Shown here: positions 3,733 through 38,715 of the stretch, piece by piece | How the letters are laid out: the number at the start of each line of letters is the position of its first letter | Position numbering within the stretch: the first letter of the stretch is position 1 | Source: Staphylococcus phage BSwM-KMM1 | Sequence record: OP902294.1 | Reading direction: 5' to 3' (one strand) | Length of the DNA stretch: 64,000 bases | Made by a program: the position numbers and the translations under genes | Notes under the pieces: generated by a model | What the model was told of the DNA's origin: nothing | The model's database searches: none | The model's input: only the letters and a program-made list of their open reading frames with translations

Positions 3733-3762
3733 CAAAAAACACCTATTAATTAAAATAGGTGT
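3733..3762 (-). terminator. rho-independent terminator ending the tRNA transcript
   Basis: CACCTATT/AATAGGTG hairpin followed by U-run on the minus strand. Confidence 0.5.
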
Positions 3763-4020
3763 AGAAAGAACTCCTATATACATTAGAGTTCTCTAAATAA
3801 TCATTATGTAACGTGTGCCTTGAACTCATAAACTCCGGCACTCCCTAAGTTTTGGGAATAGTTTTGTTTACTTGAGGACATAATATAGCATCTGTAGCCT
3901 TATGTATAACATACCGACTAACCTGTTACTGTGGCATGTGTAGGCTCTAGAAACCCTAGTTTTTATATCTTAACCTTTCATTAGATATATCAGGTACTTT
4001 TAATATGTAATTATAGATAA

Positions 4021-4093
4021 TACTGGAAGGATTTGAACCTACGCCACAAAGACCACTGTCTCCTGCTCTACCAAACTGAGCTACATGTATTAT
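4021..4093 (-). tRNA. tRNA-like gene, anticodon arm aberrant or unresolved
   Basis: D-arm GCTCAGTTTGGTAGAGC and T-loop GGTTCAAATCC on minus strand; acceptor and anticodon stems imperfect, possibly from homopolymer errors. Confidence 0.4.
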
Positions 4094-4105
4094 CTATTAA
4101 TTTCA

Positions 4106-4197
4106 GTGGGAAAGTTGGTATCGAACCAACATTTTATCTCGGTGCATACCCAAGACGTGTAGAGTATACCTCTCTACTGCCTACCTAAGGTTCCCCA
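4106..4197 (-). tRNA. tRNA-like gene with long variable region, possibly Tyr-GUA
   Basis: acceptor TGGGGAA/TTTCCCA and T-arm GTTGG-TTCGATA-CCAAC; about 92 nt with extra hairpin; loop AGGTATA. Confidence 0.35.
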
Positions 4198-4341
4198 CTA
4201 TGTATTAGCTCACACCTACGTAAGGCAATGAGCTTAGTTATTTAGATACTGGAGTTGGAAGGGTATTACCACTCAGAATTAGCAGTCAGATACAAAGCCT
4301 CTGCCGGGCAACATACGGTATCTCTCGTACATCACTATTAC

Positions 4342-4370
4342 AGTATACCACAAAGTATATTCCGTGTCAA
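4342..4370 (-). promoter_or_regulatory. consensus sigma-A promoter driving the tRNA cluster transcript
   Basis: minus strand TTGACA, 17 nt, TATACT; TTAACTTGACA...TGGTATACTGTA shared with promoter at 25039-25067. Confidence 0.6.
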
Positions 4371-4409
4371 GTTAATTTATCAATTTAATATATAAATTCT
4401 CCCTATATA

Positions 4410-23867: not shown

Positions 23868-23938
23868 CACACCCTCTAAGAATCGAACTTAGACTAACAG
23901 GTAAAAGACCTGACGTGCTAACATTACACTAAGGGTGT
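23868..23938 (-). tRNA. tRNA, anticodon loop TCTTTTA (UUU-Lys?)
   Basis: perfect acceptor ACACCCT/AGGGTGT, D-arm GTGT..GCAC, T-arm CTAAG-TTCGATT-CTTAG. Confidence 0.55.
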
Positions 23939-24019: not shown

Positions 24020-24900
24020 AAGAAAATACTATACCCTAACCCTTACCTTGGTGTATAGTAGGTTTTTATATAGGTTCAAAGCAACGTCTTTTATTACCAC
24101 TTACAAATAAAATATAACGAGGAGAAAGGGAAATGAACAAATAGTGGTAATTGGTACCTATATAGGAAATATGTATAATCTACAGGGAGGGAGATATTCG
24201 TTTTTAAAGGAGTGTGAATAATCTATAACATGAAAGAATGAAATTAAACTCCCTGTAGATTCTTTTAATTATCAATAAAAGGAGGAAACTGATAATTGTT
24301 AATAATAAACTATAAAGAGGAAAATATTTATAGTCACATTCTGATATAATGCAACTAAACATCCAAGCATAGCCCTTCTCACAGGGAACGTATGTATAAG
24401 ACCTGTTATTAAGTGAATCACTACGATTGACTCTATTAAGGAGCTACCTTAAGTCCATCTCACGCAATCCAAAAGGATAATGTGATACTAACATATTAGT
24501 TAATAACTTTCACACGGTACGAAGAATTAAATTATGTGGATATCATTATTTTTTCCAACATACCAAATATCTTTTAGTTCTGTAGATTTGTGCTACTTAT
24601 ACTGAGAACCTCTATTATCAAACACATTTCTGTGCTCCAACTACAGTTAGTCTTTACAGCGTATCTTTATAGGATTCCGCTAAGACCCTATAAAGAAGTT
24701 AAACCCTAGCTGTTCTCATACTCTACAGACCTTATACATAAGTACCAAGTATACCAATCATATCTAACGATACTAATGACGACCTATCCTACCGATTGAC
24801 TAACCCGATAAGTTTTAGTTCGTTTGATTATCTTGTACCTTATAGCTACCAAACTATTGTTCAGTCACTATGCTCAGATGTTTAGTTGTATTATTTATAT
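24020..24900 (-). ncRNA. about 0.9 kb ORF-free transcribed leader between two strong promoters and the tRNAs; putative structured non-coding RNA
   Basis: no ORF of 60 aa or more in any frame; two TTGACA-17-TATACT promoters point into it; 13-bp inverted repeat AATCTACAGGGAG/CTCCCTGTAGATT at 24176-24265. Confidence 0.35.
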
Positions 24901-24904
24901 ATTA

Positions 24905-24933
24905 AGTATAACATAATATATATTATTTGTCAA
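24905..24933 (-). promoter_or_regulatory. consensus sigma-A promoter
   Basis: minus strand TTGACA, 17 nt, TATACT. Confidence 0.6.
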
Positions 24934-25038
24934 GTTAATTTAATAAAAAATTTTAAAAAACATTGTTATTATTTGAACTGGAAAACAATGTAATGAAAAA
25001 ACAGTGATGTGTAAGGTATTTGTTTTATTGTTAAATAC

Positions 25039-25067
25039 AGTATACCATAAACTGATACCTTTGTCAA
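25039..25067 (-). promoter_or_regulatory. consensus sigma-A promoter
   Basis: minus strand TTAACTTGACA, 17 nt, TATACTGTA. Confidence 0.6.
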
Positions 25068-25092
25068 GTTAATTTTATACTTTTTTATATTA

Positions 25093-25320
25093 TTATTTAT
25101 CTTTTGTTAATTCTTCTTGAATAGCATCCCATCTTCTTTCTGCTTCACTACGATTATCTTCTATATGTTTTGTAGTTTCACAACATTTAATACAGTATAT
25201 ATCTTTGATGTGTCCTTCTTCTCTTTTATTTGCTCTTTTTCTTGGTACTTTAAATACATTACCACATTCTTTACATACTAAACTTGAGTAAAACATTTTT
25301 TGTCTTTTCATAATTATCAA
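25093..25320 (-). CDS. small zinc-ribbon protein
   Basis: CKECGN...CIKCCETTKH two CxxC pairs; RBS AAAGGAATTGATAATTATG. Confidence 0.55.
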   Translation of the reverse strand: MIIMKRQKMFYSSLVCKECGNVFKVPRKRANKREEGHIKDIYCIKCCETTKHIEDNRSEAERRWDAIQEELTKDK

Positions 25321-37323: not shown

Positions 37324-38715
37324 ATGACTATCGAAAAGAACCTGTCAGACGTTCAACAAAAGTACGCTGACCAATTCCAAGAAGACGTAGTAAAGTCATT
37401 CCAAACTGGTTATGGAATCACTCCTGACACACAAATTGACGCAGGAGCTTTACGTAGAGAAATTTTAGATGACCAAATCACAATGTTAACATGGACTAAT
37501 GAAGACTTAATCTTCTATCGTGATATTTCAAGACGTCCTGCCCAATCAACAGTAGTTAAATATGACCAATATTTACGTCACGGTAACGTAGGTCACTCTC
37601 GTTTCGTTAAAGAAATTGGAGTAGCACCAGTATCTGACCCTAATATCCGTCAAAAAACTGTATCAATGAAATACGTTTCTGATACTAAAAATATGTCAAT
37701 TGCATCAGGTTTAGTAAATAACATTGCTGACCCATCACAAATCCTTACAGAAGATGCTATCGCAGTTGTTGCAAAAACAATTGAGTGGGCTTCATTCTAC
37801 GGTGACGCTTCATTAACTTCTGAAGTTGAAGGTGAAGGTTTAGAGTTTGATGGTTTAGCTAAATTAATTGACAAAAATAACGTGATTAACGCTAAAGGTG
37901 AACAATTAACAGAACGTCACCTAAATGAGGCGACGGTTCGTATCGGTAAAGGTTTCGGTACAGCTACAGATGCTTACATGCCTATCGGTGTACACGCAGA
38001 CTTCGTTAACTCAATCTTAGGTCGTCAAATGCAATTAATGCAAGATAACAGCGGTAACGTTAATACTGGTTACAGTGTAAATGGTTTCTACTCATCTCGT
38101 GGATTCATTAAATTACATGGTTCTACAGTAATGGAAAATGAATTAATCTTAGATGAATCATTACAACCATTACCAAACGCTCCACAACCTGCAAAAGTTT
38201 CAGCTACAGTTGAAACTAAACAAAAAGGTGCTTTCGAAGATGAAGAAGACCGTGCAGGATTATCATATAAAGTAGTAGTTAACTCAGATGACGCTCAATC
38301 AGCTCCTTCTGAAGAAGTAACAGCTACAGTATCTAACGCTGACGATGGTGTTAAATTAACAATTAATGTTAACGCTATGTACCAACAACAACCACAATTC
38401 GTATCTATCTACCGTCAAGGTAAGAAAACAGGTATGTACTTCTTAATCAAACGTGTACCAGTTAAAGATGCTCAAGAAGACGGTTCAATTATTTTCGTAG
38501 ATAAAAACGAAACATTACCTGAAACAGCAGACGTATTCGTTGGTGAAATGTCACCACAAGTAGTTCACTTATTCGAATTACTTCCAATGATGAAATTACC
38601 ATTAGCTCAAATTAATGCTTCTATTACATTTGCAGTATTATGGTATGGTGCATTAGCATTACGTGCTCCTAAAAAATGGGCTCGTATTAAAAACGTTCGT
38701 TATATCGCAGTTTAA
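37324..38715 (+). CDS. major capsid protein
   Basis: 463 aa intact ORF, strong-codon bias, position after protease/scaffold; matches my recollection of the phage K major capsid protein size. Confidence 0.85.
   Translation: MTIEKNLSDVQQKYADQFQEDVVKSFQTGYGITPDTQIDAGALRREILDDQITMLTWTNEDLIFYRDISRRPAQSTVVKYDQYLRHGNVGHSRFVKEIGVAPVSDPNIRQKTVSMKYVSDTKNMSIASGLVNNIADPSQILTEDAIAVVAKTIEWASFYGDASLTSEVEGEGLEFDGLAKLIDKNNVINAKGEQLTERHLNEATVRIGKGFGTATDAYMPIGVHADFVNSILGRQMQLMQDNSGNVNTGYSVNGFYSSRGFIKLHGSTVMENELILDESLQPLPNAPQPAKVSATVETKQKGAFEDEEDRAGLSYKVVVNSDDAQSAPSEEVTATVSNADDGVKLTINVNAMYQQQPQFVSIYRQGKKTGMYFLIKRVPVKDAQEDGSIIFVDKNETLPETADVFVGEMSPQVVHLFELLPMMKLPLAQINASITFAVLWYGALALRAPKKWARIKNVRYIAV

What the first reader, a model, noticed from the sequence alone, without database searches (positions are those of the whole stretch)
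24020..25070. About 0.9 kb promoter-driven ORF-free transcript upstream of the tRNA-Asp pair; candidate structured ncRNA
Two tandem perfect sigma-A promoters at 24905-24933 and 25039-25067 (TTGACA-17-TATACT) fire leftward into 880 bp with no ORF of 60 aa or more in any frame. The region ends at the two tRNAs. It is GC-richer than its surroundings and has a 13-bp inverted repeat at 24176-24265. The second promoter shares the extended sequence TTAACTTGACA...TGGTATACTGTA with the promoter of the other tRNA cluster at 4342-4370, which suggests a dedicated, co-regulated stable-RNA promoter class. The leader could hold degenerate tRNAs, a processing substrate or a regulatory RNA.
Basis: partly seen in the sequence, partly recalled or inferred. 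Interest (0 to 1): 0.6.

Follow-up and report, generated by a model that had tools for sequence, protein, structure and literature searches.

The report
Divergent ROOL RNA in Staphylococcus phage
The gene-free stretch upstream of the phage tRNAs encodes a roughly 550-base, intricately folded non-coding RNA, already known from RNA-seq as the hugely abundant Kayvirus 'lncRNA2', which I show is a divergent relative of ROOL, an RNA class that assembles into hollow cages and has no known function.

Summary
A consensus sigma-A promoter (24933-24905, minus strand) drives an ORF-free region that ends at two tRNAs, which are Asp and Lys rather than an Asp pair.

The region has two parts:
- A 547-nt structured core at 24347-24893.
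- A 322-nt hairpin-rich trailer.

The core is conserved at the same position in six Twortvirinae genera. Of 139 base pairs, 98% are kept across 13 sequences and 93 show compensatory changes. There is no conserved ORF and no codon periodicity.

The transcript is not new. Three RNA-seq studies of phage K and 515A1 call it lncRNA2, and with lncRNA1 it makes up as much as 27% of reads. Its function is unknown.

What I add is its identity. When only the core is submitted, Rfam's ROOL model aligns to it end to end at 49.4 bits, E = 6e-9. That is below the curated cut-off of 99.1 bits. The order of helices, the pseudoknot, the variable linker and two cage-forming contacts (L8 with J6/8, and the palindromic L18 loop) are all retained.

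It is best described as a divergent ROOL variant that probably self-assembles into a cage. Its cellular role remains open. Phage K infecting S. aureus is a tractable system for testing it.

The parts
24905..24933 (-). Sigma-A promoter of the structured RNA: TTGACA-17-TATACT with a TGT extended -10. The predicted start is about 24898-24900, 5-7 nt before helix P1.
   Evidence: 11 of 12 positions, TG present. Conserved in the alignment. Equivalent to early promoter p78 of phage 515A1 (PMC7698491).
24347..24893 (-). ROOL-like structured RNA core, which is Kayvirus 'lncRNA2'.
   Evidence: Rfam RF03087 ROOL hits 24356-24887 at 49.4 bits, E 5.9e-09, covering model positions 1-574 of 574. Of 139 pairs, 98.2% are kept and 93 show double-sided change. 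MFE is -157.5 kcal/mol, z -5.88.
24868..24893 (-). P1 5' strand. This terminal helix of about 25 bp closes the RNA.
   Evidence: inverted repeat I1; helix 1: 25 pairs, 13 with compensatory change.
24347..24372 (-). P1 3' strand.
24720..24743 (-). P4 5' strand, the second long helix. Its partner is 24388-24414.
   Evidence: helices 8-9 (23 pairs, 15 compensatory). Inverted repeat I2.
24664..24696 (-). P8-like long hairpin. Its loop AGCG (24678-24681) pairs with CGCU (24658-24661) in the junction that follows. This is equivalent to ROOL bridge B4 (L8 with J6/8).
   Evidence: paired in 13 of 13 sequences, as AGCG/CGCU, GGUG/CACC (Silviavirus) and AGUG/CACU (Twort). B4 is defined in PMC12286853.
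24621..24636 (-). P9 hairpin with a GAAA loop, inside the motif UUGGAG-CACA-GAAA-UGUG-UUUGAUAAU.
   Evidence: helix 14. Aligned to the ROOL consensus UUGAaGccgaGAAAucggCGUAUAAc.
24580..24646 (-). Pseudoknot: CUGUAG (24641-24646) pairs with CUACAG (24580-24585).
   Evidence: helix 13 (4 of 6 pairs compensatory). The same pairing is possible at the same place in ROOL loci: UGUCG/CGACA in pMP118 and CGUC/GACG in L112.
24516..24579 (-). Variable A-rich linker, 43-65 nt in the 13 sequences. It is closed by the stem GCAC (24590-24593) / GUGU (24512-24515) and flanked by GUAUAAGUAGC and GUGAAAGUU.
   Evidence: (helix 16, C-G / U-A switch 6 versus 7). It corresponds to the disordered internal linker of ROOL (PMC12286853).
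24429..24459 (-). P17/18-like hairpin with the palindromic loop UAGCU (24442-24446). This is equivalent to ROOL L18, bridge B6.
   Evidence: (helices 17-18) and 82: a 4-nt palindrome in 12 of 13 sequences, and ZCSS1 UUGCA keeps the palindrome. The 13-mer AAGGUAGCUCCUU is identical to that of ROOL L112.
24021..24346 (-). 3' trailer between the core and tRNA-Asp.
   Evidence: 12 motifs versus 1.8 +/- 1.4 in shuffles; z -2.97. It lies outside the abundant RNA-seq species reported for phage K (PMC11598898).
23945..24020 (-). tRNA-Asp (GTC).
   Evidence: 63 bits.
23868..23938 (-). tRNA-Lys (TTT).
   Evidence: 52.7 bits.
24936..25067 (-). Upstream promoter (25067-25039) and its short leader. The leader holds the conserved CCUUACACA and ends in an AT-rich hairpin plus U6 (24951-25000). 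It is probably a separate short or attenuated transcript.
   Evidence: (inverted repeat I11). Phage K has an annotated terminator here.

Best explanation
The region encodes a divergent member of the ROOL class of large phage RNAs. It is the same RNA that Kayvirus transcriptome studies call lncRNA2.

Shown:
- Host sigma-A RNA polymerase can start at the strong promoter 24933-24905.
- The first roughly 550 nt fold into a closed, flat-type architecture. It comprises a 25-bp terminal helix P1, a small 5' domain, a second long helix, a central domain with a GAAA hairpin and a pseudoknot, an unstructured A-rich linker held by a short stem, and a 3' domain.
- This architecture is conserved by compensatory mutation in six Twortvirinae genera.
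- The RNA is non-coding.
- It aligns over its full length to the Rfam ROOL model.

Inferred:
- Like ROOL, it self-assembles without protein into a multimeric hollow cage, with the linker inside. The two contacts that hold ROOL cages together are kept: the L8 loop with the J6/8 junction, and the self-complementary L18 loop.
- The compact assembly explains why a discrete species of about 540 nt accumulates to a large share of phage RNA, while the 3' trailer and the tRNAs, which are co-transcribed without a terminator, are separated from it by processing. Candidates are RNase P at the tRNA and a double-strand or single-strand endonuclease near P1.

The cellular role of the cage is unknown for the whole ROOL class. 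My working guess is that it sequesters or scaffolds a translation-related component, either tRNA or ribosome.
For: Structure:
- Alignment A1 covers 13 sequences from Kayvirus, Silviavirus, Sepunavirus, Twortvirus, Sciuriunavirus and Baoshanvirus.
- RNAalifold predicts 132 pairs, 88 of them compensatory.
- My 139-pair structure with the pseudoknot is 98.2% paired, against 35-41% when partners are slid. It has 93 pairs with double-sided change against 16-25 when slid, and 0 of 500 shuffles reach it.
- The folding z-score is -5.88.

Non-coding:
- No ORF of 60 aa or more.
- No ORF shared across genera, and substitutions fall 110/108/110 by codon phase.

ROOL relationship:
- RF03087 aligns to 24356-24887 at 49.4 bits, E 5.9e-09, model 1-574 of 574. 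The next best families score 13-16 bits.
- My own model R1, built only from Twortvirinae sequences, ranks three Rfam-verified ROOL loci as its best non-self hits at the homologous register (17-22 bits, against a best background of 14.6).
- Strings and spacing are shared with ROOL L112: AAGGUAGCUCCUU, GUGAAAGUUAU, and 49 versus 50 nt from GUUGRAG to AGUAGC.

Cage contacts:
- L8 with J6/8 is paired in 13 of 13 sequences, with two covarying positions.
- The L18 loop is palindromic in 12 of 13 sequences, with an AGCU to UGCA switch in ZCSS1.
- Both contacts are defined in PMC12286853.

Context and expression:
- The gene order Iro, RNA, optional tRNAs, UphA, holin, lysin is the same in all six genera.
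- The ROOL loci L070 and L112 are also followed by two tRNAs.
- lncRNA2 makes up 8.4% of CPM in 515A1 (PMC7698491).
- lncRNA1 plus lncRNA2 make up 27% of reads in phage K. lncRNA2 at 38,024-38,566 falls inside my core, 38,006-38,594 (PMC11598898).
Against: - The ROOL score is half of Rfam's gathering threshold (49.4 versus 99.1 bits).
- The hit appeared only when the core alone was submitted. Searches of 1.7 kb, 21 kb and 64 kb returned nothing.
- Only the window's sequence was tested in the sensitive mode.
- R1 failed to detect 23 canonical gut-virome ROOLs.
- A 3'-domain model, R2, gave only background-level hits on ROOL loci.
- Several ROOL elements are missing or replaced: the outer stem of P2, the third hairpin of the P3 domain, and the ACAAUAGACG / P7 region.
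- Cage formation, the intermolecular nature of the two contacts, the mature ends and any function are all untested here.
- Low tRNA read counts in RNA-seq may partly reflect library bias rather than processing.
Confidence: 0.8

Rival explanations
1. It is a structured RNA class of its own, restricted to Twortvirinae. The likeness to ROOL would be convergence or chance, so nothing about cages can be carried over.
For: - The score is below Rfam's curated threshold.
- R1 finds none of 23 canonical ROOLs, and R2 is not discriminating.
- Several ROOL helices are absent.
- The pattern scan found no members in bacterial genomes.
Against: - The ROOL alignment is full-length at E 6e-9, with the next families at E of 3 or more.
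- The same order of more than 10 elements is kept, including the pseudoknot, the linker-closing stem and both bridge motifs.
- Reciprocal best hits fall at the correct register.
- It shares phage context, adjacency to tRNAs and high abundance with ROOL.
Confidence: 0.1
2. It is only the 5' leader of a tRNA precursor. It would be a processing substrate with no function of its own, abundant simply because the promoter is strong.
For: - It is co-oriented with the tRNAs and immediately upstream of them, with no intrinsic terminator between.
- In Silviavirus Remus, tRNA-Ser starts 1-2 nt after P1.
Against: - Five phages from four genera keep the RNA with no tRNA downstream.
- 93 compensatory pairs show selection on the fold itself.
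- The RNA outlasts and outnumbers the tRNAs in RNA-seq (PMC11598898).
Confidence: 0.03
3. The region encodes small proteins, as several GenBank records annotate: Twort gpORF073-076 and JS1 CDS0227-0232.
For: Short ORFs of 25-104 aa exist in individual phages and are annotated.
Against: - None is conserved in position or frame across genera.
- There is no 3-nt periodicity of substitutions.
- Variation is compensatory in helices.
Confidence: 0.01
4. The biologically active part is a base-pairing regulator. The C-rich loops of the trailer, which resemble the anti-Shine-Dalgarno sequence, or the linker would bind Shine-Dalgarno regions of host or phage mRNAs. The structured core would act mainly as a stabiliser.
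For: - CUCC/UCCC/CCUC motifs are six-fold enriched in the trailer and sit mostly in hairpin loops.
- The enrichment recurs in the non-alignable trailers of other genera.
- From my own knowledge, unpaired UCCC loops are the typical seed of S. aureus regulatory RNAs.
Against: - The abundant RNA-seq species covers the core, not the trailer (PMC11598898).
- Silviavirus has no trailer at all.
- No targets were tested.
- This idea is compatible with the main explanation and does not replace it.
Confidence: 0.06

Closest known systems
Kayvirus lncRNA2 (phage K lncRNA at 38,024-38,566; vB_SauM-515A1 lncRNA2 at 38,000-38,525)
   Same: It is the orthologous locus: about 84% identical to phage K over 911 nt, with the same promoter and the same position between Iro and the tRNAs. 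The published abundance and early-onward expression should therefore apply to it (PMC7698491, PMC9241854, PMC11598898).
   Different: The papers describe only read coverage and BLAST conservation within Kayvirus, and they compare it to ROOL and GOLLD by location and abundance. In the searchable literature I found no secondary structure, no covariation analysis, no conservation beyond Kayvirus and no formal ROOL assignment. This phage carries tRNA-Asp and tRNA-Lys, where phage K carries Asp, Phe and Trp.
ROOL RNA (Rfam RF03087)
   Same: - Size is about 550-600 nt.
- It has a terminal closing helix and a second long helix.
- It has a central domain with UUGRAG-hairpin(GAAA)-GAUAA/GUAUAA.
- The pseudoknot sits just before that motif.
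- GUAYRAGUAGC and GUGAAAGUU flank a non-conserved linker.
- A GGUNGCUCC hairpin is present.
- The L8 with J6/8 pairing is kept.
- A small hairpin precedes the P1 3' strand.
- It is phage-encoded, next to tRNAs, and very abundant (PMC12286853, PMC5643018).
   Different: - It scores 49.4 bits against a cut-off of 99.1.
- It lacks the P2 outer stem, one hairpin of the P3 domain and P7.
- P1 is longer, at 25 bp versus 16 bp.
- It occurs in strictly lytic Staphylococcus myoviruses, at a fixed position upstream of the lysis module.
GOLLD RNA (RF01998)
   Same: It is a large phage RNA near tRNAs, abundant during lysis, and forms cages (PMC12286853).
   Different: There is no Rfam match at E of 10 or below. 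GOLLD is over 800 nt and has an unrelated fold.

Membership tests
ROOL RNA (Rfam RF03087) | Covariance-model score at or above the curated gathering threshold of 99.1 bits | tested here: not met
   The score is 49.4 bits, E 5.9e-09, as a full-length alignment. Larger searches gave no hit.
ROOL RNA (Rfam RF03087) | A terminal helix pairing the 5' and 3' ends, and a second long helix enclosing the central and 3' domains | tested here: met
   helices 1 and 8-9 (48 pairs, 28 compensatory). They align to the ROOL braces.
ROOL RNA (Rfam RF03087) | Central domain with the UUGAaG-hairpin(GAAA)-CGUAUAA motif, closed by P5 | tested here: met
   UUGGAG-CACA-GAAA-UGUG-UUUGAUAAU is present. Helices 10 and 14 support it, with alignments.
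ROOL RNA (Rfam RF03087) | Pseudoknot (P10) next to the central domain | tested here: met
   CUGUAG/CUACAG has 4 of 6 pairs compensatory (helix 13). An equivalent complementarity exists in pMP118, in L112 and in the consensus. The correspondence to 'P10' by name is my inference.
ROOL RNA (Rfam RF03087) | A non-conserved linker closed by a stem between GUAcaAGUAGC and GUGAAAgUU | tested here: met
   The linker is 43-65 nt, 39-51% A and not alignable. The closing stem shows a C-G / U-A switch, 6 versus 7 sequences (helix 16).
ROOL RNA (Rfam RF03087) | Conserved base pairs between loop L8 and junction J6/8 (bridge B4) | tested here: met
   Paired in 13 of 13 sequences, with two covarying positions. 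Whether the pairing is between molecules cannot be told from sequence.
ROOL RNA (Rfam RF03087) | Self-complementary L18 loop (bridge B6) | tested here: met
   The loop is UAGCU in 11 sequences and UUGCA in ZCSS1, both palindromic. Twort has UCGCU, which keeps only the central GC.
ROOL RNA (Rfam RF03087) | Full set of peripheral helices: P2 outer stem, three hairpins in the P3 domain, and P7 | tested here: not met
   The alignment deletes the P2 outer stem, the ggcggaAAAccgcc hairpin and the ACAAUAGACG / P7 region. PMC12286853 notes that P7 is not always conserved.
ROOL RNA (Rfam RF03087) | Encoded by phages or prophages, often beside tRNA genes | tested here: met
   ROOL loci L070 and L112 are followed by two tRNAs.
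ROOL RNA (Rfam RF03087) | Protein-free assembly into a homo-octameric cage | not testable with these tools
   This needs in vitro transcription plus mass photometry or cryo-EM.
Kayvirus lncRNA2 | Orthologous position and sequence to the abundant transcript mapped in phage K and 515A1 | tested here: met
   About 84-89% identity to Kayvirus records. The published phage K coordinates fall inside the core.
GOLLD RNA (RF01998) | Match to the GOLLD covariance model | tested here: not met
   No match at E of 10 or below.

The most novel reading that the evidence does not exclude
The Twortvirinae RNA could be a two-part takeover device. A ROOL-type cage would be made from the core, and a co-transcribed trailer would display an array of loops resembling the anti-Shine-Dalgarno sequence or the 16S rRNA 3' end. 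The conserved zinc-finger 'ribosome-associated inhibitor' gene Iro lies directly upstream. Together they would act on host ribosomes or mRNA start sites, which would give the ROOL class its first function.
Probability: 0.08. Interest if true: 0.8.

Novelty: new variant of a known kind. Interest (0 to 1): 0.55.

Why it matters
ROOL RNAs are among the largest and most ornate bacterial and phage RNAs. They form cages larger than a ribosome. No function has been found for them since their description in 2017.

If the most abundant transcript of Kayvirus phages is a ROOL variant, the question can be addressed in a lytic phage-host pair that is already used for therapy. That pair has time-resolved transcriptomes and can be engineered. 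The natural variation across six genera also supplies ready-made compensatory mutants for the cage contacts.

There are practical consequences too. Rfam's ROOL threshold and default filters miss this branch. Several GenBank records annotate spurious small proteins across the RNA.

Tried and rejected
- Standard Rfam scans of the whole window, of 1.7 kb around the region and of six related loci found only tRNAs. The ROOL hit needed the core alone.
- A 3'-domain covariance model with only 9 base pairs gave background-level scores on ROOL loci.
- R1 did not detect 23 canonical gut-virome ROOLs. Its three cross-hits are therefore supportive only.
- The IMG/VR pattern TGANGNNNNGAAANNNNCGTATAA returned mostly chance matches. 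Two were real ROOLs.
- A scan of bacterial genomes with the Twortvirinae motif gave only chance matches.
- I tested whether the second abundant Kayvirus RNA (lncRNA1, window about 3735-4340) is a paralogue or a GOLLD. There is no R1 hit and no ROOL or GOLLD match at E of 10 or below.
- I looked for targets of the conserved leader motif CCUUACACA. Its complement is not enriched in the window.
- Degenerate tRNAs in the region: none found.
- Pfam and PHROGs searches on the flanking genes added nothing beyond the existing 'Iro / ribosome associated inhibitor A, zinc finger' label.
- BLAST of the L070 ROOL against phage genomes found no cultured relative.

Full report
**What the window is.** The 1.6 kb around the finding matches 245 Staphylococcus phage genomes. 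It is 98% identical to PG-2021_10 and about 89% identical to phages K, ISP and 812. The window is therefore a Kayvirus-like member of Twortvirinae.

**Checking the observation.**
- Both promoters are at the stated places. Each is TTGACA-17-TATACT with a TG extended -10.
- No ORF of 60 aa or more lies between them and the tRNAs.
- The 13-nt inverted repeat is real.
- The long promoter match with 4339-4375 is real.

Some details need correction.
- The two tRNAs are Asp(GTC) and Lys(TTT).
- GC content (0.28-0.37) exceeds only the AT-rich promoter block, not the neighbouring genes.
- The upstream promoter is followed by a weak hairpin plus a U-run at 24951-25000. Phage K has an annotated terminator at this spot.
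- TTGACA-17-TAHAMT promoters occur 13 times in the window, so this is the general early promoter type.

**The transcript is already known.** Three RNA-seq studies report it.
- In vB_SauM-515A1, 'lncRNA2' precedes the tRNA genes, is driven by a typical early promoter and takes 8.4% of normalised counts (PMC7698491).
- In phage K, a long non-coding RNA fills the gap between gp191 and tRNA-Asp. [quoted passage not shown]
- A third study places lncRNA2 at 38,024-38,566. It reports that the two lncRNAs take 27% of reads. It also notes that the downstream tRNAs are much less abundant although no terminator is evident (PMC11598898).

None of these papers gives a structure. My literature searches found no later work that does.

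**It is a large, conserved, structured RNA.** A distant BLAST showed that only the first 590 nt or so after the promoter are conserved beyond Kayvirus. That stretch is found in Silviavirus, Sepunavirus, Sciuriunavirus, Baoshanvirus and Twort. In all of them it sits between the zinc-finger gene Iro and the UphA-holin-endolysin module.
- I aligned 13 sequences (A1).
- RNAalifold predicts 132 pairs, 88 of them with compensatory changes.
- I replaced one local hairpin with a better-supported pseudoknot (CUGUAG/CUACAG) and added the stem that closes the variable linker. The resulting 139-pair structure is 98.2% paired.
- 93 pairs change on both sides. When the partners are slid by 1-3 columns, only 35-41% of cells pair and 16-25 pairs show such change. 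None of 500 shuffles reaches the observed values.
- The window's core folds 5.9 standard deviations better than shuffles.
- No ORF is shared between genera. Substitutions fall evenly on the three codon phases, 110/108/110.
- Five phages from four genera keep the RNA with no tRNA within 1.5 kb downstream. It is therefore not just a tRNA leader.

**It is a divergent ROOL.** Ordinary Rfam scans found nothing.
- To see what ROOL looks like, I fetched the L. salivarius pMP118 lncRNA locus (PMC5643018). Rfam scores it as ROOL at 130 bits.
- Its consensus showed the same elements in the same order as my structure.
- A model built only from the Twortvirinae central domain (R1) was searched without filters. 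Its three best non-self hits were the three verified ROOL loci, at the homologous register (17-22 bits against a best background of 14.6).
- When I submitted only the core to Rfam, the ROOL model aligned from position 1 to 574 with 24356-24887, at 49.4 bits and E 5.9e-09. The next families scored 13-16 bits.
- The earlier misses were therefore a filter effect.

The evidence has clear limits.
- The score is half of the curated threshold (99.1 bits).
- R1 does not detect 23 canonical gut-virome ROOLs.
- A poorly structured 3'-domain model was uninformative.
- Compared with the consensus, the phage RNA lacks the outer stem of P2, one hairpin of the P3 domain and the P7 region.

I therefore call it a divergent ROOL variant rather than a plain member.

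**How it most likely works.** Cryo-EM shows that ROOL forms a protein-free homo-octameric cage about 280 A across, with its non-conserved linker inside. The cage is held together by bridges that include base pairs between L8 and J6/8 (B4) and a self-pairing L18 loop (B6) (PMC12286853). Both are kept here.
- The loop of the long hairpin pairs with the junction just after it in 13 of 13 sequences. The pairs are AGCG/CGCU, GGUG/CACC in Silviavirus and AGUG/CACU in Twort.
- The L18-equivalent loop is a palindrome in 12 of 13 sequences. ZCSS1 switches from AGCU to UGCA, which preserves self-complementarity.
- The linker is 43-65 nt, A-rich and not alignable.

I infer, but cannot show, that the RNA assembles into a similar cage. 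I also infer that the compact particle is what accumulates in infected cells, while the trailer and the tRNAs are cut away. The role of the cage is unknown for the whole class.

**The rest of the region.**
- Its loops are rich in CUCC/UCCC/CCUCC, with 12 motifs against 1.8 +/- 1.4 in shuffles.
- The same enrichment appears in the non-alignable trailers of other genera.
- This may point to pairing with Shine-Dalgarno sequences, but I did not test that.

**Verdict.** The transcript is a known one. Its covariation-supported structure, its spread across Twortvirinae and its assignment to the ROOL class are, as far as I could find, new.

Noticed in passing
window 24936-25067 (minus strand): The upstream promoter drives a short leader holding a motif, CCUUACACA(UC)ACUG, that is conserved in five genera. 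The leader ends in an AT-rich hairpin plus U6. A 5' AACAAU segment could compete with the terminator arm, which would be an attenuator-like layout. Phage K and some relatives carry an extra GC-rich terminator here. This may be a separate small RNA or a read-through control element.
   Followed up: partly
window 24021-24342 (minus strand); also L003 2128-2454, L006 1834-1954, L007 2077-2500, L008 2021-2584: The trailer after the ROOL-like core is six-fold enriched in CUCC/UCCC/CCUCC motifs, mostly in hairpin loops. The enrichment recurs in trailers of other genera that cannot be aligned. Phage K even carries UCACCUCCUUUC, which resembles the 3' end of 16S rRNA.
   Followed up: partly
window 3735-4375 (minus strand): This is the locus of the second abundant Kayvirus RNA, lncRNA1. 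It runs from a promoter at 4370-4342 through about 250 nt, a weak tRNA (4019-4090, 33.9 bits, not called by ARAGORN) and about 280 nt more to a terminator-like hairpin. A second cloverleaf-like element lies at about 4110-4198. It is neither ROOL nor GOLLD (no match at E of 10 or below). There is a sub-threshold YrlA (Y RNA-like) match at 23.3 bits. The folding z-score is -3.0.
   Followed up: partly
window 23868-23938: The second tRNA is Lys(TTT). Phage K and most Kayvirus genomes carry Phe and Trp after Asp, and some relatives carry Asp alone, so the tRNA set after the RNA varies between close relatives.
   Followed up: partly
L004 3446-3535 (Silviavirus Remus): A RAGATH-18 RNA (63.8 bits, above threshold) lies just downstream of a transposase gene that follows tRNA-Ser, close to the ROOL-like RNA.
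   Followed up: no
L006 1407-1891 (Twort), L009 1422-2446 (JS1): GenBank records annotate four to six small 'hypothetical proteins' on both strands across the structured RNA. They are not conserved between genera and are probably annotation artefacts.
   Followed up: yes
A1 columns 442-477: L003, L009, L012 (Kayvirus-like), L004, L013 (Silviavirus): An optional hairpin of about 36 nt is inserted between the hairpin after GUGAAAGUU and the 3' domain in some phages. It is absent from this window. It is a lineage-specific expansion segment of the RNA.
   Followed up: no
L022 2332-2586: A Twortvirinae-like viral contig carries a match to Rfam S808 (Staphylococcus sRNA 808) at 80.2 bits, above threshold. 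No such match occurs in the window.
   Followed up: no
window 25093-25320 (minus strand): The zinc-ribbon gene Iro (PHROG 1257, 'ribosome associated inhibitor A') lies directly upstream of the RNA in all six genera. This fixed pairing could mean a functional link.
   Followed up: partly
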